The notes below the pieces were generated by a model, which made no database searches, had not been told where the DNA came from, and saw only the letters and a list, made by a program, of their open reading frames with translations. Below, piece after piece: positions 15,918-44,652 of a DNA stretch of 64,000 bases (its first letter is position 1; every line of letters begins with the position of its first letter). Source of the DNA: an uncultured Phocaeicola sp. (lineage in GTDB: Bacteria; Bacteroidota; Bacteroidia; Bacteroidales; Bacteroidaceae); assembly GCA_944320885.1 (NCBI GenBank), contig CALUJE010000005.1:39355-103354 (forward strand), written 5' to 3'. The position numbers and the translations under genes were made by a program.

Positions 15918-18900
15918 TTAGAATGTTACATTAATACCACCTACGAAAGAACGGCTTTTCGGATAAGCCGCATAATCTACTCCGGGAGTCATGAGATTGC
16001 GTTTGCTGCTGGTATCTACTTCCGGGTCGGTTCCCGAGTAATTGGTGAATACCCAGAGATTGTATCCGGTAAAGTAAATACGGACGTTTTCCATAAACCA
16101 TTTCTTTATCCAGGTCTTGGGCAGGGTATATCCCACGGTGATATTGTTCAGACGTAAGAAAGAAGCGTCTTCTACTGCATAGTCAATGAGCTGCATGGTT
16201 GTAACTCCTGCCGGATTCCATATGTTGGCATTGGCATTCAGTTCATTCAAACGGTTTATCAGGCCCTGTTCGCCTCCGTATTGTTCTATGGTTGTACTGC
16301 TGTTTATTTTTCCCAGATTCAATCCGTTTTCGGGGTCAATCCATGTGTAGCGGTTAGAGAGCTTGAAATCTTCGTTCAAGTTGTATGCTCCGCTTGAGCC
16401 CGCATTGAAGGAAGTGGCCAGTTTGGTTCCGTTTATCAGCTTGTTGCCGATAGAATAGTTCATGAATACCGAAAAGTCAAAGTTTCCTGCCTGTCCGTCA
16501 AAGCCGAATCCGCCAACTACCGGTGCGATGGTATTGCCCAGTTTCTGTTTGACAGGATTACCGTTTTCGTCACATTCCACTTTCAGTCCACCGGGATAAT
16601 AAGAACCTCCGGTCAGTGCGGCACTGTTGTCTTTTACTCCGTCTTTAAGAGTCCATGTGCGGCCGTCGTCAGCCAGAATCAGTTCACCGGCAGGATTGGT
16701 TACTGGGTCGTAAGCTGTATAGAATCCGTTGGTCTTGTAACCCCAGATTTCTCCCAGGCTACCACCTTCATGAATGTAGAAGTCTTCATATTGTGAAATG
16801 ATTGAGCCTCCCCAGTTACTGTTCTGCCATGAATTCTGGTTGTTGAGCTTGTCGATGTTGTTTTTATTGTATGCAATATTGAAGTTGAAGTTGATTCCAA
16901 ACTTTTTGGTATCGGCCAGAATGGCTTTTAAGGTCAGTTCAACACCCTTGTTTGAAGTCTGTCCGAAGTTCTGGTACTGATAATTGTAACCGGACATGGA
17001 AGGAACTTCGGTACGCATCAGCAAGTCGCGTGTCGTATTCCAGTAAAAATCCAAAGTTCCTGAAATGCGGTTACCCCAGAAGCCATAATCAACACCGAAG
17101 TTACGGGTTATGGTAGTTTCCCATTTCAAGTCAGGATTGTATAAATAGGTTCCATGCTCTAACATTGCAGTGCGGTCTTCTCCGAAATAAGGATATTTTC
17201 CGGATGTGCCGGATATGGTATAAGTTGTGGAAATCAGTCCGGAACTGATACGGTTGTTACCGGCAGTACCGTAGCTTAAACGGAGTTTCAGGGATGAAAG
17301 CCAGTTTGCAGTGCTTTGCATGAACGGTTCGTCAGAGATGCGCCATGCGAAGGCAGCTGACGGGAAGAATCCCCAACGGTTATTTTCTGCGAATTTGCTG
17401 GAACCGTCGGCACGTGCTGTTACGGTAAACAGATATTTATCCTTTAAGGTATAATTGACACGTCCGAAGAATGACAACATTGTCTCTTTGGCGGCAATAT
17501 CAGACTCGGCAGCATACAGTTCGCCTGTACCGATTTGTGCCAGAACTTCGCTGGGCTCCATTTGTGAAGGGAAGTTCACGTAGGTATTTGTCACGGCTTT
17601 CTCCTGGCTGCTGCTTACTTCATGTCCTAAAAGGATATTGAGGCGGTCACGTCCGTTGAAAAGCTTTTTGTTGTCATAAGTGATGGTGTTGGCATTGCGC
17701 CAGTTGCGTGTATCATCACTGATGATGGCTGCCTGCGGTTGTCCGTTGTATGCCAGATTGGAGTTTCGCGTAGCGTCAGAGCCCCATGCCTGGTTGGTAT
17801 CGTCCATACGCCATCCGTAACCGAATTCAGAACGTATGGTGATGTTCTTGAAAGGTTTCCAGTTTACGCCAATGTTATAGTTCTGTCGGAATGAACGTTT
17901 TTGCTTGTATGTAGCCAGCAAACGCTCCAGTGGTGTTGCTGTCTGTGCAGAGCTGCCTTCGTCGGTATCATCGCTGTTGTCGTCGGAAGCGTTCAGGTAT
18001 TGTACGGGACGGAAGCGTACGGCATTTGTCACGATAGAGTTGGTAGCGTTTGATTCGTTGGTATCAGAACCGCTGCCCAGACCATCGGTTACAGCATTGC
18101 TTAAACGTGCCTGGAAATCTATTGAAATCCATTTGTTCAGTTCCGTATTGATTTTTGCGTTGATGTTGTCTTTGCGGTAGCCTGAACCCAGCATGATGCT
18201 TTCTTCATCATTGTGTGAGTAGTTGATGTTGTATTTCAGCTGTTTGGTTCCTCCGCTTATGTTGACGTTGTATTGCAACTGATTGCCGGTACGGCCGAAA
18301 ATCTCATCCTGATAATCTGTTCCTGCGATGGATTTGTAAATGTCGAAGTCTTCAAAAACGCCGAAGTTGCCTTCGCCGTTAACTTCATAATTGTAGTATA
18401 CAAAGTCGTACGGACTGAGTACTTTGGTGAGCTTTGTTGCCTGCTTGAACGCATAAGATGCTCCGAAGTCTACCTTTGTCTTTCCCTCAGTACCGCTTTT
18501 TGTGGTAATTATCACTACACCGTTGGCACCGCGTGCACCGTATATGGCAGTAGAAGAAGCGTCCTTCAGCACGTCTACCGATTCGATTTCGCTTGGTGAT
18601 ATGTCACCGATGCTTGATACGGGAAATCCGTCGACGATATAAAGCGGTGAGTTGTCCTGTGAAAGTGAACCTCCACCACGGATACGTATGTTCACGTCTC
18701 CGTCAGGCGAGCCGTCGGTAGTGGTTACGCTGACACCGGCCAGTTTTCCGGTCAACGCTTCAGATACACTGGTTACCGGTACGGCAGCCAGGTCTTCTCC
18801 CTTTACAGATGCGACCGAACCGGTCAGGTCACGTTTGTTTACGGTTCCATAACCGATGACCACAACTTCATCCAGTACTTTGGTATCTTCATTCATGATA

Positions 18901-19181
18901 ACGTCGAGGTGCTTTTGACCATTCACCTTGACTTCTTTGGTTACATAACCCACATACGTAAAAACCAGGACGGAAGACTTGTCAACGGATGGTAATGAAA
19001 AATTACCGTCGAAGTCTGTTATCACACCCGTCTTTGTTCCTTTTACCAGTACACTTACGCCGATCATGGGTTCGCCGTTCGTGTCTTTCACAGTACCCTG
19101 TATCTTGTCTTGCGCATAAGACATCATACAAAGCATGCTCATCAAGAGCCATGAGACAAACTTTAGTTTTTTCTGATGCAT
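15918..19181 (-). CDS. SusC/RagA family TonB-dependent outer-membrane transporter
   Basis: 1087 aa. Signal peptide, carboxypeptidase-regulatory-like domain (GTVKDTNGEPMIGVSVLVKGT), plug (VVIGYGT), C-terminal ...GINVTF beta-barrel end. No N-terminal STN/anti-sigma signalling domain. Confidence 0.95.
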   Translation of the reverse strand: MHQKKLKFVSWLLMSMLCMMSYAQDKIQGTVKDTNGEPMIGVSVLVKGTKTGVITDFDGNFSLPSVDKSSVLVFTYVGYVTKEVKVNGQKHLDVIMNEDTKVLDEVVVIGYGTVNKRDLTGSVASVKGEDLAAVPVTSVSEALTGKLAGVSVTTTDGSPDGDVNIRIRGGGSLSQDNSPLYIVDGFPVSSIGDISPSEIESVDVLKDASSTAIYGARGANGVVIITTKSGTEGKTKVDFGASYAFKQATKLTKVLSPYDFVYYNYEVNGEGNFGVFEDFDIYKSIAGTDYQDEIFGRTGNQLQYNVNISGGTKQLKYNINYSHNDEESIMLGSGYRKDNINAKINTELNKWISIDFQARLSNAVTDGLGSGSDTNESNATNSIVTNAVRFRPVQYLNASDDNSDDTDEGSSAQTATPLERLLATYKQKRSFRQNYNIGVNWKPFKNITIRSEFGYGWRMDDTNQAWGSDATRNSNLAYNGQPQAAIISDDTRNWRNANTITYDNKKLFNGRDRLNILLGHEVSSSQEKAVTNTYVNFPSQMEPSEVLAQIGTGELYAAESDIAAKETMLSFFGRVNYTLKDKYLFTVTARADGSSKFAENNRWGFFPSAAFAWRISDEPFMQSTANWLSSLKLRLSYGTAGNNRISSGLISTTYTISGTSGKYPYFGEDRTAMLEHGTYLYNPDLKWETTITRNFGVDYGFWGNRISGTLDFYWNTTRDLLMRTEVPSMSGYNYQYQNFGQTSNKGVELTLKAILADTKKFGINFNFNIAYNKNNIDKLNNQNSWQNSNWGGSIISQYEDFYIHEGGSLGEIWGYKTNGFYTAYDPVTNPAGELILADDGRTWTLKDGVKDNSAALTGGSYYPGGLKVECDENGNPVKQKLGNTIAPVVGGFGFDGQAGNFDFSVFMNYSIGNKLINGTKLATSFNAGSSGAYNLNEDFKLSNRYTWIDPENGLNLGKINSSTTIEQYGGEQGLINRLNELNANANIWNPAGVTTMQLIDYAVEDASFLRLNNITVGYTLPKTWIKKWFMENVRIYFTGYNLWVFTNYSGTDPEVDTSSKRNLMTPGVDYAAYPKSRSFVGGINVTF

Positions 19182-19241
19182 AAAAATATTAAATTAAGAG
19201 ATTTTTTCTTAGTGGACCTTAGAGTTATCAAAAGGGCGCGG

Positions 19242-19249
19242 CAAATATA
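19242..19249 (-). promoter_or_regulatory. Candidate -7 box for susC (TATATTTG on the minus strand)
   Basis: Matches the Bacteroides TAnnTTTG consensus. About 60 nt upstream of the susC ATG at 19181. Confidence 0.4.
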
Positions 19250-19533
19250 AGGTAAGTGCGCGCATAAAAAAACAGGCGGATTCTGATTGGCGAAAAAGTG
19301 CTAACTTTTGCACATTTTGTCTTTATGATTAATCTCTGTATCTTGTCTGTCAGGCAGAAAGATGTACTGAACAGGAGGTGAAGTGAACAGTTTTTGCGTA
19401 TCTATAGGCCGGGAGTTCTTATTTATTCCGAAGATGTCTGTATCAGTACAGAGGCTGGTGTATTGAAGACGGGAGCCGTTTTTATTCTTCAAAGACCAAG
19501 CTTGAATCTCCAAGAGACAGCCCGCATGTTTTT

Positions 19534-19615
19534 TGCATCGGGCGATGCAGCGTTGTGCACCGGGCGGTGCAGTGTTGTGCATGCCGCGATGCAAAGTTGT
19601 GCATCGGGCGGTGCA
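19534..19615. repeat. Four tandem 22-bp units, each with a 16-bp GC-rich palindrome (TGCAYCGGGCGRTGCA)
   Basis: Units start at 19534, 19556, 19578 and 19600. Palindromes 1 and 2 are perfect 7+2+7, number 4 has one mismatch, number 3 is degenerate. Spacers are GCGTTG, GTGTTG and AAGTTG. Confidence 0.85.
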
Positions 19616-19681: not shown

Positions 19682-22600
19682 TTACTGGTTTCGCTTGTCC
19701 TTGTATTCCGTAGGACTCATACCTGTTTTTTTCTTGAAGCACCGGCCAAAATAGTTGGGGTCTCCGAATCCGGTCATGTAGGCTATCTGTGCCACAGTGT
19801 ATGAGTCGTCGTCCATAAGCTGCAGTGCACGTTTCAATCTTATTTCGCGTATGAACTCTACAGGCGTAAGTCCCGTAATGCTTTTCAGTTTGCGGTAGAA
19901 TACGGTTCTGCTGAGGCAGAGATGCTCTGCAAAGTCTTCAATCTTAATGTCGGGGTTGGCTATATTCTGCTCAAGAAACCCGATAACCTGATGTATGAAT
20001 TGCTCGTCGAGCGAAACCAGTGACGGCTTGGAAGGTTCATACTCGGTTTTGCCGTTTGCGGCGGCCTTTTCTTCCGTATTGCTGCCGGCTGATGCCTGCA
20101 GGCGTGCCATGTATATTTCCTGCAACTGCTTTTGGCGTCGCAGGAGTGAGGCTATGCGCGTTTTCAGGTATGTGGCACTGAATGGTTTGGTAATATAATC
20201 GTCAATACCTTCTTCGAGACTGGCTATACGGTCATCGAGCGATGCCTTTGCAGAAAGGACAATGATAGGGATATGGCAAACGTTGATGTCCAGTTTCAGT
20301 TGTCTTACCATTTCGAGTCCGTCCATAACGGGCATCATCACATCGGTAATGATGAGGTCGGGGATAGACGAACGCGCTTTTTCTACTCCTTCACGGCCGT
20401 TGACAGCTTCGATAACCTGATATTGTTCAGACAATATGTTGTTCAGGAACTGCCGTAACTCATTGTTGTCTTCTACTACCAGTATTGTGAGGCGTTCCTT
20501 ATTTTCGTCTGTAGCGGGAGGCAATGTATTCTTTTTGTTTTCCGGGGTAGAATTATCTGATACATTTGAAGAACCATCATTTAATATGAACTCGGCATTC
20601 TTGTCCTCGTCGTATACAGAACGTTTTAACGGCAGGTATACAGTAAAACAGCTTCCTTTGCCCGGAGTGCTTTTGAGTTGTATGGAGCCGTGCATCAATC
20701 CTGTCATTTCTTTAACCAGAGAAAGTCCGATGCCCGAAGACGGCTTCCAGAAATCGGTATCTTTTCTTGGGATATTTTCAAAGCGTTTGAAAATCCGTTC
20801 CTGTTTGGACGGTTCTATGCCGATACCTTCATCCTTTACGCTTATCTCGGCATAATTTCCGGTTGTACGTACTTCTACGCTTATGCTTTTGCCGGCAGGG
20901 GTGTACTTGAATGCGTTTGATATGAGATTGAAGAAAATCTTGTCAGCCTTGTCGCGGTCAAGCCATATGGAGAGCTCCGGAAGTTCACTTCGAAGCTGGA
21001 ATGAAATGTTCTGTTCAGTAGCGAGCGACTGGAAATTGGTCATGAGCTGTCTGAGGAAACCAATCAGTTCTATTTTCTCTACTACGACTTTCATTTTCTG
21101 GTTCTGTATTTTACGGAAATCCAGAATTTGAGTCATCAGGCGCAGCATCCTGACCACATTGTTGTGTGCCAGCATCAGGTTCTCACGTGACTTCTGTGAC
21201 AGGGTCTGGTCTTGAAGGACTTCGTCAACCGGTCCGGAAATGAGTGTAAGCGGGGTGCGCAGCTCGTGCGAAATATCCGTAAAGAATCGCAGCTTGATGT
21301 CGGCAAGCTGTTGCTCCATGTCAATGCGGTGACGCAAACGGTATATATAAAACAGAACCAGCATGATAACGGCTGCCAGTATTATCAGTAACATGGCATA
21401 AAGCAATTTGGCCCAAATCGTCTCTCCAAAGGTCGGTTTGACTACCAGTTTCAGGCTTCTGACATTGTCCATCCAGATACCGTTGTTGTTGGTCGACTTT
21501 ATTTCGAGCGTGTAGGTACCTACAGGCAGTTTCATGTAAGCGGCCGCACGGGTTTTGCCTACGTTGTTCCAGTCTTTTTCCAGTCCTCGCAGGCGGTAGG
21601 CATACTGTATGTCTTGTGAGCCTACCATATCAATGGCAACAAACGAGAATATAATGTTGCGCTGTGATGGAGAGAGAGTTATCTGTGATATCTTGTTCGG
21701 ATTGTCTTGCAACAGATTGCCTTGTATACGTATGTCATTGAACAGTACCGTAGGAACGTAGTTGTCTACCTTCATCTTTTCCGGGTTGATTTCGAGAACT
21801 CCCTGATTGGTTCCTATAAGTACCCGTTGTCGGGATATGGACAAGGGGATGGCTTCGGAGAATTTTATTTGAGACCGGAAGGTATTGCTGTTATAGTTTA
21901 TGAACAGCCTGGAGTGAGGGTCGTATTTAGAAAGCATATTCTCAAAGATAATCCACAGATTGCCGTCATTATCCTCAAACATGGAATGTACCAGATTGGA
22001 AGGTAATCCTTTCATCTGCTCAAAATGGATGGAGTCGCTTAATAAATTATCTGATACAACGCGATTGACACCTCCGGTAAAGGTCGATACATAGATTTCC
22101 CCCTTGCTGTTTCGGAAGATGTGCATGACGTCATTGCCATTTAAGGAATGTGCTTCGTTGGCCTGGCGCTGGTTGCGATAGAAACGAATGTCGGCAGGAT
22201 TCTCAAAACGGGTTGAAAGTGAGATAAGTCCTTCCTGAGTACCGACAAGTAAAATATCATCGGGAGTTGTTGTGATAAAGCGTACCTTTAGTCCGGTGTC
22301 GGGATATGTTTTTTTCCAGTCGTTACCACTATGGATAAAGCGTGCGTGTCCGTCCTGCCACGTCAGCAGGTTGAGTCCTCCTTCAAAAGTTCCTATCCAG
22401 ATTCGGCCCTGACGGTCTTCATGCAGGGAATAGACCTGGTCACTTCCCAGGCTGTATGGCTCTTTTGATTTATGCCGGTATTGGGTTACTTTAAACCGGT
22501 CGGCAGATACAGGTTCCAGGCAATAGAGTCCCTTTCCTTTTGTTCCTACCCAGATATTTCCTCTTTTATCCTGAAGAATGGCATAGGCTCCGGATGAAAA

Positions 22601-24025
22601 CTTGCATTTCTTCGAAGTAATTTCTCCGTTGGCAGAGAGGTATCGGGGTGTTTTTTCCTTTTGGTCGTATACATATATGATACCCGACTGTGAGCCTATC
22701 CAGGTTCGTTGCATCTTATCCTGAAGAAAAGCTCTGGTATCCATGTTCTTTTCATGCATCTGCAGATTATAGAAATGCGGCAGACAAGACAGCTTTGTTA
22801 CACCACTGTGTGATGCAAACCAGAGATTTCCTTGCCGGTCGAATGTATAGAAACGGATATATGGGGCAAAGTTGGAATTCGGATCGTTCGGATTCTGCAG
22901 GTAAAGCTTGAACTCATCGTCCGCTTCGTCGTAATAACACATGGAACCGACGGAAGGGATGACCCAGAGAGTTGAATTCTTGTCTTCGAAAATGACACAA
23001 CGCCCTTTTCGCTGATCGGTTGTATGTGGAAAATCCGGAAGCCGGTAATCCTTTCGTTCCAAAGTATACAGATTGATGCACAGCATGTGTGAGTCGGCTG
23101 TCAATACCCAACATTCTTTGTCGTTATAATGTAAGGCTATAAAATCGTCTGATGAGCCCGGAGACGAATATCGGGTGAACGATTTCCCTTTGATGGAGTA
23201 TAGCCAGAAACCCTGTTTGCTTGTCAATCCCAGATAGCCATTGGGTAGTCCTGCTACAGAATTCAGATTCTTGCATTCGGCAGGCAGTTTCCGACATTCA
23301 GTCTTGTCGGTATTCTTATCGTAAATAACCATGCATCCGTCATCGGAAAAGAGAAAGATATTATTGCTTTTTTCTTTGAAGAAGCGGAAACTTTTTTCGT
23401 ATTCCAGATGCTTCTTGCCAATGATTGTTACGCCATTATTGGTAAGAACCCATTCGTTCCCTTCTTTGTCTAAGGAAACATTATAAATGATTTCTCCCTT
23501 GAGTGTATTGTTGGAAGTACTGTATAGCCTTATTCCATCTTCTTCAGTATAATGTGATTCATCTACTCTGAAGTTGAGTCCGTCACGTCCTATAAGCCAG
23601 GTTACCCCATTGCGCAGCGTATAAAGCCGTTCTATGTATATCGTTTCTTTCAGTTTCTGTTCGGCCTTGGCCAGCATGTCAATAAAGGTGCGTGTCTTCT
23701 TGTTGAATAAATATATGCGTCCGTCATAGGTTCTGCACCATATGTCGTCAGACGAGGTAGGTGATATGATGGTAATACGATTGGTTGTCAGAGCCTTTCC
23801 GCCTTCGGCCGACATGTTGTAATTGGTAAAGGAATATCCGTCATAACAGTCCAGACCGTTCCATGTGCACATCCATAATAATCCGTCGTTATCCTGGAAC
23901 AGGCGTTGTACCAGACTTTGTGACAAACCGTCGTTTGTATTGTATGTCTGTATTTTGCATATGGGTTGTGCCTGTATGCTCCAATGCAAACATTGGAATA
24001 TGAACAGCAGTAACAGATGTCTCAT
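19682..24025 (-). CDS. Hybrid two-component system sensor kinase / response regulator with AraC-type HTH (HTCS)
   Basis: Periplasmic beta-propeller repeats, TM helix (LLYAMLLIILAAVIMLVLF), HisKA (FFTDISHELRTPL), HATPase, receiver (ILVVEDNNELR...DVMMPVMDG), C-terminal AraC HTH. Start at MRHLLLLF (24025), or ORF maximum 24055. Confidence 0.95.
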   Translation of the reverse strand: MRHLLLLFIFQCLHWSIQAQPICKIQTYNTNDGLSQSLVQRLFQDNDGLLWMCTWNGLDCYDGYSFTNYNMSAEGGKALTTNRITIISPTSSDDIWCRTYDGRIYLFNKKTRTFIDMLAKAEQKLKETIYIERLYTLRNGVTWLIGRDGLNFRVDESHYTEEDGIRLYSTSNNTLKGEIIYNVSLDKEGNEWVLTNNGVTIIGKKHLEYEKSFRFFKEKSNNIFLFSDDGCMVIYDKNTDKTECRKLPAECKNLNSVAGLPNGYLGLTSKQGFWLYSIKGKSFTRYSSPGSSDDFIALHYNDKECWVLTADSHMLCINLYTLERKDYRLPDFPHTTDQRKGRCVIFEDKNSTLWVIPSVGSMCYYDEADDEFKLYLQNPNDPNSNFAPYIRFYTFDRQGNLWFASHSGVTKLSCLPHFYNLQMHEKNMDTRAFLQDKMQRTWIGSQSGIIYVYDQKEKTPRYLSANGEITSKKCKFSSGAYAILQDKRGNIWVGTKGKGLYCLEPVSADRFKVTQYRHKSKEPYSLGSDQVYSLHEDRQGRIWIGTFEGGLNLLTWQDGHARFIHSGNDWKKTYPDTGLKVRFITTTPDDILLVGTQEGLISLSTRFENPADIRFYRNQRQANEAHSLNGNDVMHIFRNSKGEIYVSTFTGGVNRVVSDNLLSDSIHFEQMKGLPSNLVHSMFEDNDGNLWIIFENMLSKYDPHSRLFINYNSNTFRSQIKFSEAIPLSISRQRVLIGTNQGVLEINPEKMKVDNYVPTVLFNDIRIQGNLLQDNPNKISQITLSPSQRNIIFSFVAIDMVGSQDIQYAYRLRGLEKDWNNVGKTRAAAYMKLPVGTYTLEIKSTNNNGIWMDNVRSLKLVVKPTFGETIWAKLLYAMLLIILAAVIMLVLFYIYRLRHRIDMEQQLADIKLRFFTDISHELRTPLTLISGPVDEVLQDQTLSQKSRENLMLAHNNVVRMLRLMTQILDFRKIQNQKMKVVVEKIELIGFLRQLMTNFQSLATEQNISFQLRSELPELSIWLDRDKADKIFFNLISNAFKYTPAGKSISVEVRTTGNYAEISVKDEGIGIEPSKQERIFKRFENIPRKDTDFWKPSSGIGLSLVKEMTGLMHGSIQLKSTPGKGSCFTVYLPLKRSVYDEDKNAEFILNDGSSNVSDNSTPENKKNTLPPATDENKERLTILVVEDNNELRQFLNNILSEQYQVIEAVNGREGVEKARSSIPDLIITDVMMPVMDGLEMVRQLKLDINVCHIPIIVLSAKASLDDRIASLEEGIDDYITKPFSATYLKTRIASLLRRQKQLQEIYMARLQASAGSNTEEKAAANGKTEYEPSKPSLVSLDEQFIHQVIGFLEQNIANPDIKIEDFAEHLCLSRTVFYRKLKSITGLTPVEFIREIRLKRALQLMDDDSYTVAQIAYMTGFGDPNYFGRCFKKKTGMSPTEYKDKRNQ

Positions 24026-24421: not shown

Positions 24422-24430
24422 TTTTGTTTT

Positions 24431-24827
24431 GTGGACCTGGAGGGAGTCGAACCCTCGTCCAAACGAGGAAACCATATGCTTTCTACATGCTTATCTCAGC
24501 CTTCGGTTTTCGTGCATAAGCAAGACCTGAGCCACCCACTTATGCCTTATCCTCTAAAATTTCATCAAGACCGCGAGGAAAGATCCTGACTATCCCCGAT
24601 ATAACTGCACCACTATGCCAGAATGCTTCGGAGCAACAGCTTCTGAGTGATGTCTCGTTTCCGCACCTTGTGCAGAAATAAAGTTAATCTACTGTTCTTC
24701 GATTAAGCAGCGAGAGCGTAGTTGTTTTCGCCAGATAATTGTTTGGTAACTGTGATTATAGTGCAAATCACCGACGCACTGCATGCTTACATACCATTTC
24801 TGCCCGCTGTCAAATCCAAACAAGCCC
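24431..24827 (-). ncRNA. ssrA: tmRNA (transfer-messenger RNA)
   Basis: 3' tRNA-like end CGAGGGTTCGACTCCCTCCAGGTCCAC. 5' GGGCTTGTTTGGATTTGACAGCGGG. Internal tag ORF GGCGAAAACAACTACGCTCTCGCTGCTTAA encodes GENNYALAA* (24703-24732). Confidence 0.9.
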
Positions 24828-24908: not shown

Positions 24909-26444
24909 TTATTTAGCAAAGCTTACGGCACGTGTTTCACGAATAACTGTAATCTTCACCTGTCCCGGATAAGTCATTTCATCCTGAATCTTCTTGGCAA
25001 TTTCGGTAGAGAGTTGTTCAGTCTGCTTGTCGTCAATCTTGTCTGCGCCGACGATTACACGAAGTTCACGTCCTGCCTGAATTGCATAGGTCTTGGTTAC
25101 ACCCGGATAAGAAAGAGCCAGTTGCTCCAGGTCATTCAGACGCTTGATATATGCTTCTACAATCTCTCTGCGTGCACCCGGACGTGCTCCGGAAATAGCA
25201 TCGCAAACCTGTACGATAGGAGCGATAAGCGTTTCCATTTCCGCTTCATCGTGGTGAGCTCCGATAGCATTGCAGATATCAGCTTTTTCCTTGTATTTTT
25301 CAGCAAGTTTCTGTCCCAGCAGTGCGTGTGGCAATTCCGGTTCTTCATCGGGCACTTTTCCTATATCGTGCAACAGACCGGCTCTCTTGGCCTTTTTCGG
25401 ATTCAGTCCAAGTTCAGAAGCCATGATGGCACATAAGTTGGCTGTTTCACGGGCATGCTGAAGCAGGTTCTGTCCGTAACTTGAGCGGTATTTCATTTTT
25501 CCGATAAGTCGGATAAGTTCCGGATGCAAGCCATGGATACCAAGATCTATGGTGGTACGCTTTCCGGTTTCTACGATCTCGTCTTCTACCTGCTTGCGAA
25601 CTTTGGCAACAACCTCTTCGATACGTGCCGGGTGGATACGTCCGTCAGTAACCAGCTGGTGAAGAGCCAAACGGGCAATTTCGCGGCGCACGGGGTCAAA
25701 GGCAGAAAGTACGATAGCTTCCGGAGTGTCATCAACAACGATTTCTACACCGGTTGCAGCTTCGAGTGCGCGGATGTTACGTCCTTCGCGTCCGATGATT
25801 CGTCCTTTTACCTCATCCGAGTCGATGTGGAATACAGTAACAGAGTTTTCAATAGCCGTTTCGGTAGCAACTCGCTGTATGGTTTGAACAACGATGCGTT
25901 TAGCTTCTTTGTTGGCTGTCATTTTTGCATCGTCCATTATGTCGTTGATATAAGACTGAGCCTGTGTCTTGGCTTCTTCTTTCAAAGACTCAATAAGCTT
26001 CTCTTTTGCCTCTTCAGCCGAAAGTCCGCTCAAAGCCTCAAGCTTTTCTCTTTCCTGTGACTGCAGTTTGTCCAGTTCTTCCTTTTTCTTGTCAATAACT
26101 ACAAGCTGTGCTTCCAGATTTTCCTTGATAGCCTCAGCTTCATTGCGTTTGCGCTGAACTTCTTCCTGGCGCTGGTTCAAGACAAGTTCTCTTTGTTTCA
26201 GCTTGTTTTCTGCCTGTTGGATACGTTGATTGCGCTGCGCAACCTCTTTTTCCAAATCAGCCTTTTTGTTAAGGAACTTTTCTTTTACTTCCAGCAGCTT
26301 GTTTTTCTTGATAACTTCAGCTTCTGTTTCAGCCTCTTTCAGAATGCTGTTATACTTTGATTTCATTACGTATCTGAAAACCGTATATCCAGCAATGAGT
26401 CCTATGACAAGAGCAATTAATGATGTTACTATAGTTAAACCCAT
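24909..26444 (-). CDS. rny: Ribonuclease Y
   Basis: N-terminal TM helix, long coiled coil, KH domain ([15 protein letters not shown]), HD domain (LLHDIGK...GAHH). Confidence 0.95.
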
Positions 26445-44328: not shown

Positions 44329-44415
44329 CGGAAAGACAGGGATTCGAACCCTGGGAACAGTTACCCGTTCACCGCATTTCGAGTGCGGCCCGATCGACCA
44401 CTCCGGCATCTTTCC
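44329..44415 (-). tRNA. tRNA-Ser (anticodon CGA)
   Basis: Minus strand GGAAAGATGCCGGAGTGGTCGA...CCGCA-CTCGAAA-TGCGG, long variable arm, T-arm CCAGGGTTCGAATCCCTG, acceptor TCTTTCC. Confidence 0.92.
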
Positions 44416-44475: not shown

Positions 44476-44566
44476 TAAACCACGTGTGCTCTCGAAAAAA
44501 CGACGTGTGCTTTTCTTGAAGAGTACGCGTGCTTTTTTAAAAAGCATGGGTGCTTGCCGGAACACG
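44476..44566. repeat. Four phased 21-22-bp direct repeats with core ACGYGTGCT(TTT)
   Basis: Cores at 44482 (ACGTGTGCT), 44503 (ACGTGTGCT), 44525 (ACGCGTGCT) and 44546 (ATGGGTGCT). Each is preceded by an A-run and followed by a T-run. Confidence 0.75.
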
Positions 44567-44644: not shown

Positions 44645-44652
44645 TATATTTG
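44645..44652 (+). promoter_or_regulatory. Candidate -7 box (TATATTTG) for hflX
   Basis: Matches TAnnTTTG. About 34 nt upstream of the ATG at 44686. Confidence 0.4.

What the first reader, a model, noticed from the sequence alone, without database searches (positions are those of the whole stretch)
19534..19615. Phased array of four 16-bp GC-rich palindromes (22-bp period) between the HTCS gene and susC
- **Array:** Units start at exactly 19534, 19556, 19578 and 19600.
- **Palindromes:** TGCATCG-GG-CGATGCA (perfect), TGCACCG-GG-CGGTGCA (perfect), TGCATGCCGCGATGCA (degenerate), TGCATCGGGCGGTGCA (one mismatch).
- **Spacers:** A conserved NNGTTG spacer separates the palindromes.
- **Phasing:** A 22-bp period is about two helical turns, so all sites face the same side of the DNA.
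- **Position:** The array is a GC-rich block in an otherwise AT-rich 500-bp intergenic region. It lies 67-148 bp downstream of the HTCS stop and about 350-430 bp upstream of the susC ATG. It is also upstream of the candidate -7 box at 19242.
- **Why unexplained:** Nothing in the coding annotation accounts for it. It is too short and spacer-less to be a CRISPR array. No U-run follows it on the strand that is transcribed into it.
- **Possible roles:** A cooperative operator for a dimeric regulator of this pectin PUL (either the HTCS AraC output domain or a global carbohydrate regulator). A REP-like palindromic element. Stacked RNA hairpins that stabilise the 3' end of the HTCS mRNA.
Basis: partly seen in the sequence, partly recalled or inferred. 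Interest (0 to 1): 0.7.

Follow-up and report, generated by a model that had tools for sequence, protein, structure and literature searches.

The report
Phased TGCA palindrome array, not PUL-specific
The four evenly spaced GC-rich palindromes between the pectin sensor gene and its transporter gene are real and under selection, but they belong to a small family of similar arrays scattered behind unrelated genes in related gut bacteria, so they are probably a docking array for an unknown DNA-binding protein and not this locus's own on/off switch.

Summary
Four 16-bp units lie at 19534, 19556, 19578 and 19600 with an exact 22-bp period, 66 nt past the HTCS stop and about 350-430 bp upstream of the susC ATG.

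The pectin-PUL operator reading is not supported:
- One sister lineage has an identical HTCS DNA-binding domain and a conserved susC promoter block, yet has no array.
- Arrays of the same family, sharing a 28/29-nt identical module, lie in non-PUL intergenic DNA. One sits between ppiD and rprY. Another sits upstream of an ECF sigma gene.
- A close relative lacks the ppiD array.

Selection acts on the TGCA tetramers and their 12/10-bp phasing:
- Window versus a relative with 75% HTCS identity: 0/32 TGCA positions changed, against 7/24 centre and 12/18 spacer positions.
- Extended hairpin pairs are not kept.
- No U-tract follows the array.

Best reading (confidence about 0.4): this is a low-copy, patchily gained and lost, REP/BIME-like tandem palindrome array. 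It most likely works as a one-face docking site for an unidentified sequence-specific dimeric DNA-binding protein.

Rivals are 3'-UTR hairpins, a neutral minisatellite, and an accessory HTCS site. Interest is moderate.

The parts
19534..19615 (.). The whole array: four head-to-tail 22-bp repeats, each a 16-bp unit plus a 6-bp spacer. The centres are G-rich on the + strand and C-rich on the HTCS/susC sense (-) strand.
   Evidence: The array is identical in six other assemblies of the same species apart from one spacer SNP.
19534..19549 (.). Unit 1, TGCATCGGGCGATGCA. It is a perfect palindrome except for the central GG.
   Evidence: As RNA on the - strand it forms a 6-bp stem with a 4-nt loop, -6.5 kcal/mol.
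19556..19571 (.). Unit 2, TGCACCGGGCGGTGCA.
   Evidence: Hairpin energy is -8.5 kcal/mol.
19578..19593 (.). Unit 3, TGCATGCCGCGATGCA. Only the outer 5 bp on each side are palindromic. The same odd unit type sits at the matching position of the L042 array.
   Evidence: Hairpin energy is only -2.9 kcal/mol.
19600..19615 (.). Unit 4, TGCATCGGGCGGTGCA. Together with its spacer and tail it reads AAGTTGTGCATCGGGCGGTGCACTAAATA, which matches the end of the ppiD-rprY array in L104 at 28 of 29 positions.
   Evidence: Hairpin energy on the sense strand is only -1.8 kcal/mol.
19520..19533 (.). Flank: GCCCGCATG followed by a T-run. GCCCGCATG is a partial inverted copy of a unit half and can pair with the first half of unit 1. 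On the sense strand the array therefore ends in an A-run, not a U-run.
   Evidence: The pairing appears in the minimum-energy fold.
19182..19360 (-). Conserved promoter-proximal block upstream of susC. It includes the -7 box TATATTTG at 19242-19249. This block, not the array, is the better candidate for the HTCS operator and promoter.
   Evidence: The block is 73-79% identical across all lineages, including those that lack the array, while the intergenic stretches on either side of the array are 38-61% identical.
19682..24025 (-). Hybrid two-component sensor/regulator (HTCS) gene. Its stop codon lies 66 nt before the array.
   Evidence: The Pfam architecture is Reg_prop/Y_Y_Y/HisKA/HATPase_c/Response_reg/HTH_AraC.
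15918..19181 (-). susC-like TonB-dependent transporter gene. It is the first gene of the pectin PUL operon downstream of the array.
   Evidence: The pectin context (pectinesterase, DUF5123, SusD) is.

Best explanation
**What it is.** The array is one copy of a low-copy family of 22-bp tandem repeats found in Bacteroidales. Each repeat carries TGCA-N8-TGCA. The consensus unit is the near-palindrome TGCAYCGGGCGRTGCA.

**How the family behaves.** The arrays sit in intergenic DNA, and in four of the five loci examined just past the 3' end of a gene. They are gained or lost between closely related species. Once resident, they are kept under purifying selection. This is the behaviour of a REP/BIME-type extragenic palindrome cluster, not of a locus-specific operator.

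**Inferred mechanism.** Selection falls on the TGCA tetramers and their alternating 12/10-bp spacing, which places one TGCA per helical turn on one face of the DNA. It does not fall on hairpin stability. The most likely mechanism is therefore sequence-specific recognition of duplex DNA. In this reading, dimers of an as yet unidentified protein each bind one 16-bp unit, side by side every two turns.

**Role at this locus (inferred).** The array would act as a boundary or insulating site between the HTCS transcription unit and the separately promoted susC operon.

**Shown versus inferred.** Shown: the anatomy, the family, the patchy distribution and the selection pattern. Inferred: protein binding, the identity of the protein and the physiological role.
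For: **Real and phased.**

**A family at unrelated loci.**
- L104 carries 4 units between convergent ppiD and rprY. The array starts 41 nt after the ppiD terminator (-19.7 kcal/mol plus U7). Its end is 28/29 identical to the window's, including spacer and tail.
- The L104 array is identical in three further contigs.
- L090 carries 3 units about 270 bp upstream of an ECF sigma gene.
- Related TTGCA-N8-TGCAA arrays in L143 and L123 lie behind a two-component operon. Their centres are neither palindromic nor G-rich.

**Patchy distribution.**
- The array is absent from L040/L041/L185 at the HTCS locus.
- It is absent from L189 at the ppiD locus, although the ppiD terminator there is conserved.

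**Selection on TGCA.**
- Window versus L042: 0/32 TGCA positions changed, 7/24 centre and 12/18 spacer (Fisher p = 2e-6).
- All 18 TGCA in these two arrays, which were found without using the pattern, are intact.
- Within the species: 0/64 unit positions differ against 18/200 flank positions (p = 0.006).
- Array identity between window and L042 is 76%, against 58-61% for the flanks.

**Hairpins not conserved.**
- Inner pair 6-11 is kept in 3/4 window units but 0/5 L042 units.
- Unit energies range from -1.7 to -8.5 kcal/mol.

**No catalogued element matches.** No known RNA family matches. There is no match in plasmids or phages.
Against: - No binding protein is identified, and nothing here shows binding.
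- A short hairpin, whether RNA or extruded DNA, also needs the outer 4-5 bp. Purifying selection on a stem would conserve TGCA over modest divergence, so the case for sequence-specific recognition rests on the absence of any alternative complementary tetramer among about 30 units. Part of that sample was pattern-selected.
- The G-rich/C-rich strand asymmetry of the unit centres is not expected for a symmetric dimer site.
- Copy number per genome is unknown.
- The orthologous locus functions without the array in one lineage, so any role is dispensable.
Confidence: 0.4

Rival explanations
1. The array acts as stacked hairpins at the RNA or single-strand level. Read through from the HTCS gene, it would form stem-loops, or one long composite hairpin. 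These would protect the 3' end of the HTCS mRNA or attenuate read-through into susC.
For: - The array is the first structured element after the HTCS stop. No promoter motif flanks it, so read-through transcription is its likely source.
- Units 1 and 2 fold at -6.5 and -8.5 kcal/mol.
- The arrays fold better than shuffles: z = -2.7 for the window sense strand, -5.0 for L042 and -2.5 for L104.
- In a Paraprevotella MAG, an inverted pair of near-identical 16-mers forms a textbook terminator after an Mrp-like gene (-33.3 kcal/mol followed by U5). This unit type can therefore serve as a terminator stem.
Against: - No U-tract follows the array on either strand, and the terminator scan finds nothing there.
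- Hairpin strength is not conserved. Five of nine orthologous units (two in the window, three in L042) fold at -3 kcal/mol or weaker, and the inner pairs are lost in L042 without compensation.
- The TTGCA-N8-TGCAA relatives have essentially no hairpin potential.
- In L104 the array lies beyond the ppiD terminator and about 280 bp beyond the rprY terminator, in DNA that is probably little transcribed.
- The orientation relative to the upstream gene differs between loci.
Confidence: 0.25
2. The array is a neutral or selfish minisatellite. It would be a remnant of a small mobile or slippage-prone palindromic element (REP-, MITE- or BrickBuilt-like) with no host function at this locus.
For: - Presence or absence differs between close relatives at both loci studied.
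- Unit number varies: 4 versus 5 at the HTCS locus and 2 versus 4 in L123/L143.
- A near-identical 29-nt module occurs at non-orthologous loci in different species.
- There is a Bacteroidales precedent. BrickBuilt in P. gingivalis is an intergenic MITE with a 23-nt minisatellite (PMC4596501).
Against: - The substitution pattern is strongly non-uniform, with 0/32 changes in TGCA and 19/42 in centre plus spacer. The array is also invariant within the species against 9% divergent flanks. Both argue for constraint.
- Positional orthology of individual units between window and L042 argues against simple homogenisation.
- There are no leader or tail sequences, no terminal inverted repeats and no GTAG/CGTC tag.
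- Only one array occurs in 64 kb.
Confidence: 0.2
3. One reading: the array is a cooperative operator for the adjacent HTCS (AraC-type output) or another regulator of this pectin PUL, acting on susC from a distance.
For: - Published HTCS motifs are direct repeats about 21 bp apart on one DNA face, for example 16-bp sites with a 5-bp spacer (PMC3878776).
- BT4124 footprints show pairs of half-sites 21-22 bp apart, four in a row (PMC13292587).
- The array lies between the HTCS gene and susC and is conserved with a relative that has 75% HTCS identity.
Against: - The L040/L041/L185 lineage has the same PUL and an identical DNA-binding domain across both helix-turn-helix motifs. Its promoter block is conserved, but it has no array.
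- Same-family arrays sit at non-PUL loci.
- No further unit occurs anywhere else in the PUL or the 64-kb window.
- The array is 353-434 bp from the ATG, against -126 to -34 for the mapped HTCS sites.
- The Cur consensus does not match.
- No sigma-54 promoter is nearby, and the NtrC dyad is 17 bp, not 16.
Confidence: 0.1

Closest known systems
REP elements and their clusters (BIMEs; GTAG/CGTC-tagged palindromic repeats, Di Nocera et al. 2013, PMC3733652)
   Same: - Short GC-rich imperfect palindromes in extragenic DNA.
- Typically found at 3' ends of genes or between convergent genes.
- Sometimes reiterated head-to-tail.
- Variable between related genomes.
- Proposed to be protein-binding, to stabilise mRNA, or both.
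   Different: - There is no GTAG or CGTC tag.
- The units are only 16 bp.
- All units are head-to-tail with a rigid 22-bp period, whereas BIMEs alternate orientation.
- Only one array occurs in 64 kb, so high copy number is not shown.
- No RAYT gene was seen.
- Conservation is concentrated on TGCA and does not extend across the whole stem.
Tandem half-site operators of Bacteroides hybrid two-component systems (Ravcheev 2013, PMC3878776; BT4124 footprints, PMC13292587)
   Same: - Direct repeats with a 21-22 bp period on one face of the helix.
- Up to four in a row.
- Located next to an HTCS gene and upstream of susC.
   Different: - Known sites lie within about 130 bp of the start codon, whereas this array is more than 350 bp away.
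- The array is missing in a lineage with an identical DNA-binding domain.
- The same repeats occur at non-PUL loci.
- The units are palindromes, which is not expected for a monomeric AraC-type half-site.
BrickBuilt MITE/minisatellite of Porphyromonas gingivalis (Klein et al. 2015, PMC4596501)
   Same: - A Bacteroidales intergenic tandem repeat of similar unit size (23 nt versus 22 nt).
- Variable repeat number.
- Dispersed at several loci.
   Different: - BrickBuilt has long leader and tail segments with IS5-type terminal inverted repeats, and 19 copies per genome.
- Here the flanks are unrelated beyond about 7 nt.
- Here the units are palindromic.
- Copy number appears low.
Arrays of palindromic operators or centromere sites bound cooperatively by dimers (lambda/434 OR-OL operators; F sopC; hipBA operators). 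This comparison is from general knowledge and was not tested here.
   Same: - Three to twelve 14-17-bp dyad sites.
- Conserved half-sites with variable centres.
- Spaced about two helical turns apart.
   Different: - Those arrays sit in promoters or on plasmids and phages, next to the gene of the binding protein.
- Here no cognate gene is evident.
- Plasmid and phage searches were negative.

Membership tests
HTCS (AraC-type) operator of this PUL | Direct repeats about 21-22 bp apart on one DNA face | tested here: met
   The period is exactly 22 bp. Published spacing is in PMC3878776 and PMC13292587.
HTCS (AraC-type) operator of this PUL | Lies in the promoter-proximal region of the regulated susC | tested here: not met
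   The array is 353-434 bp from the susC ATG and about 285-366 bp from the -7 box. The mapped BT4124 sites lie at -126 to -34.
HTCS (AraC-type) operator of this PUL | Co-conserved with the regulator's DNA-binding domain across orthologous loci | tested here: not met
   The DNA-binding domain is identical in window, L039, L040, L185 and L042, but L040/L041/L185 lack the array.
HTCS (AraC-type) operator of this PUL | Confined to the regulon (PUL promoters) | tested here: not met
   Same-family arrays lie between ppiD and rprY and upstream of an ECF sigma gene. No other unit occurs in the PUL.
HTCS (AraC-type) operator of this PUL | Bound by the HTCS output domain | not testable with these tools
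   This needs EMSA or footprinting.
REP / BIME extragenic palindromes | Short GC-rich imperfect palindrome capable of forming a stem-loop | tested here: met
   The 16-bp unit is shorter than the 20-40 bp typical of REPs (PMC3733652).
REP / BIME extragenic palindromes | Unpaired GTAG or CGTC tag at one end | tested here: not met
   The column profile of 16 units shows T-T-(G/T) before the unit and no GTAG or CGTC.
REP / BIME extragenic palindromes | High copy number per genome | tested here: inconclusive
   One array occurs in 64 kb, and none elsewhere in about 150 kb of related loci. No whole-genome scan of the host was possible. The strict genome-collection scan found no other Phocaeicola hit.
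REP / BIME extragenic palindromes | Extragenic, at gene 3' ends or between convergent genes, and variable among relatives | tested here: met
REP / BIME extragenic palindromes | Association with a RAYT (IS200/IS605-like) transposase | not tested
   No such gene turned up in the 20 window ORFs scanned against Pfam, which cover about 1-16 kb and 26.5-36 kb. The rest of the window and of the genome was not examined.
Intrinsic (Rho-independent) terminator | GC-rich hairpin immediately followed by a U-tract | tested here: not met
   Hairpins are present, but the array is followed by an A-run on the sense strand and by CTAAAT on the other. The terminator scan finds nothing there.
CRISPR array | 24-48-bp repeats separated by unique spacers of similar length | tested here: not met
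   The units are 16 bp and the spacers are 6 bp and similar to one another.
NtrC-type enhancer (UAS) for a sigma-54 promoter | 17-bp dyad TGCACCAnnnTGGTGCA, with a TGGCAC-N5-TTGCW promoter within reach | tested here: not met
   The units are 16 bp, so the half-sites are one base closer (PMC8743547). No sigma-54-like promoter lies near the array.
BrickBuilt-type MITE with internal minisatellite | Tandem ~23-nt repeats flanked by conserved leader and tail segments that carry terminal inverted repeats | tested here: not met
   The tandem 22-nt repeats are present, but the flanks of the window, L104, L042 and L090 arrays share at most CTAAATA (PMC4596501).
Cur/BT4338 binding site | Match to wwwTATGTTnTAnAACATAwww | tested here: not met
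   The consensus is from PMC6989115. The unit sequence bears no resemblance to it.
Any Rfam RNA family | Covariance-model hit at or near the gathering score | tested here: not met
   Only chance-level hits were found (E about 1).

The most novel reading that the evidence does not exclude
Bacteroidales carry a previously undescribed class of phased TGCA-N8-TGCA (TTGCA-N8-TGCAA) arrays with a 22-bp period, placed just beyond gene 3' ends and between convergent genes. These arrays would be the chromosomal loading or wrapping sites of a dedicated, still unknown DNA-binding protein. That protein could be a transcription-unit insulator or roadblock, a topology factor analogous to gyrase or IHF at BIMEs, or a reader of TGCA methylation. 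The HTCS-susC array would be one such boundary element.
Probability: 0.3. Interest if true: 0.7.

Novelty: new variant of a known kind. Interest (0 to 1): 0.45.

Why it matters
Very little is known in gut Bacteroidales about non-coding chromosomal elements other than promoters, invertible switches and a few sRNAs.

- **If the best reading holds.** A conserved, phased array under clear purifying selection that recurs behind unrelated genes would be a concrete handle on an unknown DNA-binding factor. It could also reveal how neighbouring transcription units, here a constitutively expressed sensor and its inducible transporter operon, are insulated from each other.
- **A practical caution.** The 22-bp tandem architecture mimics the published HTCS operator pattern. 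Regulon-prediction pipelines could therefore mistake such arrays for PUL operators.
- **If it is only a minisatellite.** It remains a useful strain or species marker, but it would be biologically ordinary.

Tried and rejected
1. **Strict collection scan.** I scanned 185,579 species genomes for two adjacent units with pure G/C centres. It gave 38 loci. Almost all were chance hits in high-GC genomes. The one Bacteroidales hit (L027) is an ordinary terminator built from an inverted pair of similar 16-mers. The pattern was too strict to find relaxed units, so this scan says little about how far the family spreads.
2. **Relaxed metagenome scan.** Only about 7 of 120 loci were relevant.
3. **Phage or plasmid origin.** Three viral-contig scans and BLAST against plasmids and phages gave only chance hits. 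Rejected.
4. **Known RNA family.** Rfam at gathering and at permissive thresholds found nothing.
5. **Sigma-54 enhancer.** I considered this because TGCACC...GGTGCA resembles the NtrC dyad and one related array follows an NtrC-type operon. Rejected because the spacing differs (16 versus 17 bp) and no sigma-54 promoter is present.
6. **Cur/BT4338 site.** The consensus is unrelated.
7. **RbpB/FopS sRNA system.** I found nothing linking it to the array. Its binding motif and its PUL target sites (around the susC start codon) differ from the array's sequence and position, and Rfam, where the FopS structure was deposited, gave no hit.
8. **Restriction avoidance of TGCA.** TGCA is not depleted in the window (0.87 of expectation).
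9. **A 21-bp direct repeat in the conserved promoter block, as the 'true' HTCS site.** A crude offset search found none. This is left open.
10. **More distant HTCS homologues (about 50% identity; L180-L182).** These loci are not syntenic and carry no array.
11. **Small ORFs across the array.** The 22-bp period is not a multiple of three and these ORFs overlap both strands, so I treat them as spurious.

Full report
**1. The observation**

The region reads exactly as described. Four 16-bp units start at 19534, 19556, 19578 and 19600. They are separated by GCGTTG, GTGTTG and AAGTTG.

- Tandem Repeats Finder gives period 22, 3.7 copies and score 101, the strongest tandem repeat in the window.
- The motif is far above chance: 9 hits against 1.2 expected, with 0 of 100 shuffles reaching 9. 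TGCAY-N6-RTGCA occurs 5 times against 0.43 expected, and four of those are the array.
- The array is the densest TGCA cluster in 64 kb, with 8 per 100 bp against a mean of 0.5.
- It is a GC-rich island: GC is 0.57-0.61 in the array against 0.33-0.44 in the windows of the spacer that do not overlap it.

Both flanking genes are on the minus strand. The HTCS gene is 19682-24025 and susC is 15918-19181. The locus is a pectin PUL with pectinesterase, a DUF5123/fn3 protein and SusD. The host is a Phocaeicola species: its adenylate kinase clusters with P. plebeius and Ca. P. gallistercoris at 90% identity or more.

On the transcribed strand the array lies 66 nt after the HTCS stop. It ends in an A-run, not a U-run. 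The only Bacteroides-type -7 box in the spacer is TATATTTG at 19242-19249, about 60 nt before the susC ATG.

**2. Orthologous loci**

The HTCS has close relatives at 99%, 84% and 75% identity, and then nothing above about 50%. I aligned the HTCS-susC spacers.

- **Same species.** All seven assemblies (two haplotypes) have four units. The 64 unit positions never differ, and one spacer base differs. The flanks differ at 18 of 200 positions (Fisher p = 0.006).
- **The 75% relative (L042).** It has five units in the same place. Individual units correspond by position, including the odd third unit.
- **The 84% lineage (L040, L041, L185).** It has no array at all. The distal ~270 bp of its spacer is unrelated.
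- **The proximal block.** The proximal ~180 bp (window 19182-19360) is conserved at 73-79% in every lineage.
- **The DNA-binding domain.** The AraC-type domain of the HTCS is identical through both helix-turn-helix motifs in all five lineages.

The regulator's specificity is therefore unchanged where the array is missing. The shared promoter block, not the array, is the natural operator candidate.

**3. What selection preserves**

I compared the four orthologous unit pairs between the window and L042.

| Position class | Changed / total |
|---|---|
| TGCA | 0 / 32 |
| Y/R positions | 1 / 8 |
| Centre | 7 / 24 |
| Spacer | 12 / 18 |

TGCA against centre plus spacer gives p = 2e-6.

- The inner base pair that makes the window units 'perfect' palindromes (positions 6-11) holds in 3 of 4 window units but in 0 of 5 L042 units, with no compensating change.
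- Unit hairpins range from -8.5 to -1.7 kcal/mol.
- The arrays as a whole fold better than shuffles (z = -2.7, -2.3, -5.0 and -2.5). This follows automatically from repeated self-complementary ends.

The conserved feature is TGCA(Y)-N6-(R)TGCA every 22 bp. That places a TGCA at alternating 12- and 10-bp steps, about once per helical turn on one face.

A profile of 16 units from four arrays gives the consensus (T-T-K)TGCA-Y-S-G-G-G-C-G-R-TGCA. The centre is G-rich on one strand.

**4. The same repeats elsewhere**

A strict scan of one genome per species found nothing useful. Its one Bacteroidales hit is a Paraprevotella terminator made of an inverted pair of near-identical 16-mers (-33 kcal/mol plus U5).

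It nevertheless recovered clear relatives in other contexts.

- **L104.** Four units lie between convergent ppiD and rprY/rprX, 41 nt beyond a strong ppiD terminator (-19.7 kcal/mol plus U7). The rprY terminator is about 280 bp away on the other side. The array's last unit, spacer and tail (AAGTTGTGCATCGGGCGATGCACTAAATA) match the window at 28 of 29 positions.
- **L090.** Three units lie about 270 bp upstream of an ECF sigma gene.
- **L143 and L123.** These are orthologous loci with four and two units of TTGCA-N8-TGCAA. They lie behind an NtrC-type two-component operon and before a convergent gene. Their centres are neither palindromic nor G-rich.

The ppiD array is identical in three more contigs of that species. 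It is absent from a relative with 89% identical PpiD whose ppiD terminator is conserved.

The family is therefore intergenic and, in four of the five loci examined, lies just past a gene's 3' end. It is patchily present among close relatives and stable once present. It is not on plasmids or phages. It matches no Rfam family.

**5. Interpretation**

*The PUL-operator reading.* The 22-bp tandem geometry does mimic published HTCS operators. Those are direct repeats about 21 bp apart (PMC3878776), and BT4124 footprints show half-sites 21-22 bp apart (PMC13292587). It fails on four counts:
- the position is more than 350 bp from the ATG, against -126 to -34 for the mapped sites;
- the array is absent in a lineage with an identical DNA-binding domain;
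- no further units occur anywhere else in the PUL;
- the same repeats occur at non-PUL loci.

The Cur/BT4338 consensus is unrelated. The resemblance to the NtrC dyad TGCACCAnnnTGGTGCA is off by one base in spacing, and no sigma-54 promoter is present.

*The RNA-hairpin reading.* It is weakened for three reasons. Hairpin strength is not conserved. No U-tract follows the array. In L104 the array lies outside both flanking terminators.

*The neutral-minisatellite reading.* It explains the patchy distribution and the copy-number changes. It does not explain the sharply non-uniform substitution pattern or the within-species invariance.

*The reading I favour.* The array is a REP/BIME-like extragenic palindrome cluster whose selected property is sequence-specific recognition of the phased TGCA pairs in duplex DNA. 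This is most simply explained by dimers of an unidentified protein bound side by side every two turns. At this locus it would mark or insulate the boundary between the HTCS unit and the susC operon.

Protein binding, the identity of the protein and the physiological role are all inferences. I put this reading at about 0.4, RNA or ssDNA hairpins at about 0.25, a neutral repeat at about 0.2 and an accessory HTCS site at about 0.1.

**6. Comparison with known systems and novelty**

The element shares its location, GC-rich palindromy and variability with REP/BIME elements. It lacks the GTAG/CGTC tag (PMC3733652). It also lacks alternating orientation and demonstrated high copy number.

It shares unit size and dispersal with the P. 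gingivalis BrickBuilt minisatellite. It lacks that element's leader, tail and terminal inverted repeats (PMC4596501).

I found no description of TGCA-N8-TGCA 22-bp arrays in Bacteroidales in the literature I could search. I rate it a new variant of a known kind (extragenic palindromic repeat cluster or multi-site protein-binding array). Interest is moderate at 0.45. It is real and under selection, but its function is unproven and it is dispensable at this locus in one lineage.

**7. Limits**

- The copy number per genome could not be measured.
- The relaxed scan was truncated.
- Part of the family sample was selected by the search pattern. The window and L042 arrays, on which the selection test rests, were not.
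- The taxonomy of the other loci is only approximate. For L104, the nearest named PpiD is from Phocaeicola barnesiae at 57% identity.

Noticed in passing
window 44480-44555: A second, different tandem repeat: period ~21, units around ACGTGTGCT/ACGCGTGCTTTT, 2.8 copies. It lies between a tRNA gene (44329-44415, minus strand) and the promoter region of the + strand gene starting near 44650. The units contain CACGTG/ACGCGT-like dyads.
   Followed up: partly
window 19182-19360 (minus strand): About 180 bp directly upstream of susC is conserved at 73-79% in all lineages, while the intergenic stretches on either side of the array are 38-61% identical. It contains AAAGACAAAATGTGCAAAA...GCACTTTTTCGCCAATC and the -7 box TATATTTG. 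This block is probably the real promoter plus HTCS operator. A crude search found no obvious 21-bp direct repeat in it.
   Followed up: partly
whole window: GATC occurs at 0.21 of its Markov expectation (45 observed against 212 expected). CTAG occurs at 0.27. The other 4-bp palindromes lie at 0.67-1.05. This suggests strong selection against GATC, for example from a restriction system or mismatch-repair signal.
   Followed up: no
L104 7579-7763 versus L186-L188: L104 carries a ~156-bp insertion inside the rprY terminator hairpin. It is bounded by 18-bp inverted repeats (AGAGGCTGTCTCAAAATA / its complement). The insertion is absent from three other contigs of the same species. It looks like a small MITE-like insertion into a terminator stem.
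   Followed up: partly
L027 2757-2806 (Paraprevotella MAG): The terminator after an Mrp/ApbC-like gene is built from an inverted pair of 16-mers (TGCATGGCCCGATGCA / TGCATCGGGCCATGCA) that are nearly identical to the array unit. It folds at -33.3 kcal/mol and is followed by U5. This hints that the unit may derive from, or be co-opted as, a terminator stem.
   Followed up: partly
L159, L172-L175 (IMG/VR and metagenome contigs, GC ~0.62); L097/L169/L170: Other 22-bp tandem arrays with TGCAC-N6-GTGCA-type dyads occur in viral contigs, for example TTGCACAGGTGAGTGCACTGTG x3-4 and TGCACGGGGGGGTGCA. Two of them (L172, L175) lie within about 70 nt of the end of the fetched stretch. They may be phage operator, iteron or centromere-like arrays. 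They are unrelated in sequence to the Bacteroidales family.
   Followed up: no
L040 5969-6050: In the lineage that lacks the array, the HTCS stop is followed by a different inverted repeat, TGCAGCAGA-N16-TCTGCTGCA. L185, a second contig of this lineage, does not keep this repeat intact.
   Followed up: no
window 24429-24827 (minus strand): A tmRNA gene (135.6 bits) lies between the HTCS gene and the RNase Y gene (24909-26444). It is followed by a 13-bp-stem terminator-like hairpin at 24863-24834.
   Followed up: no
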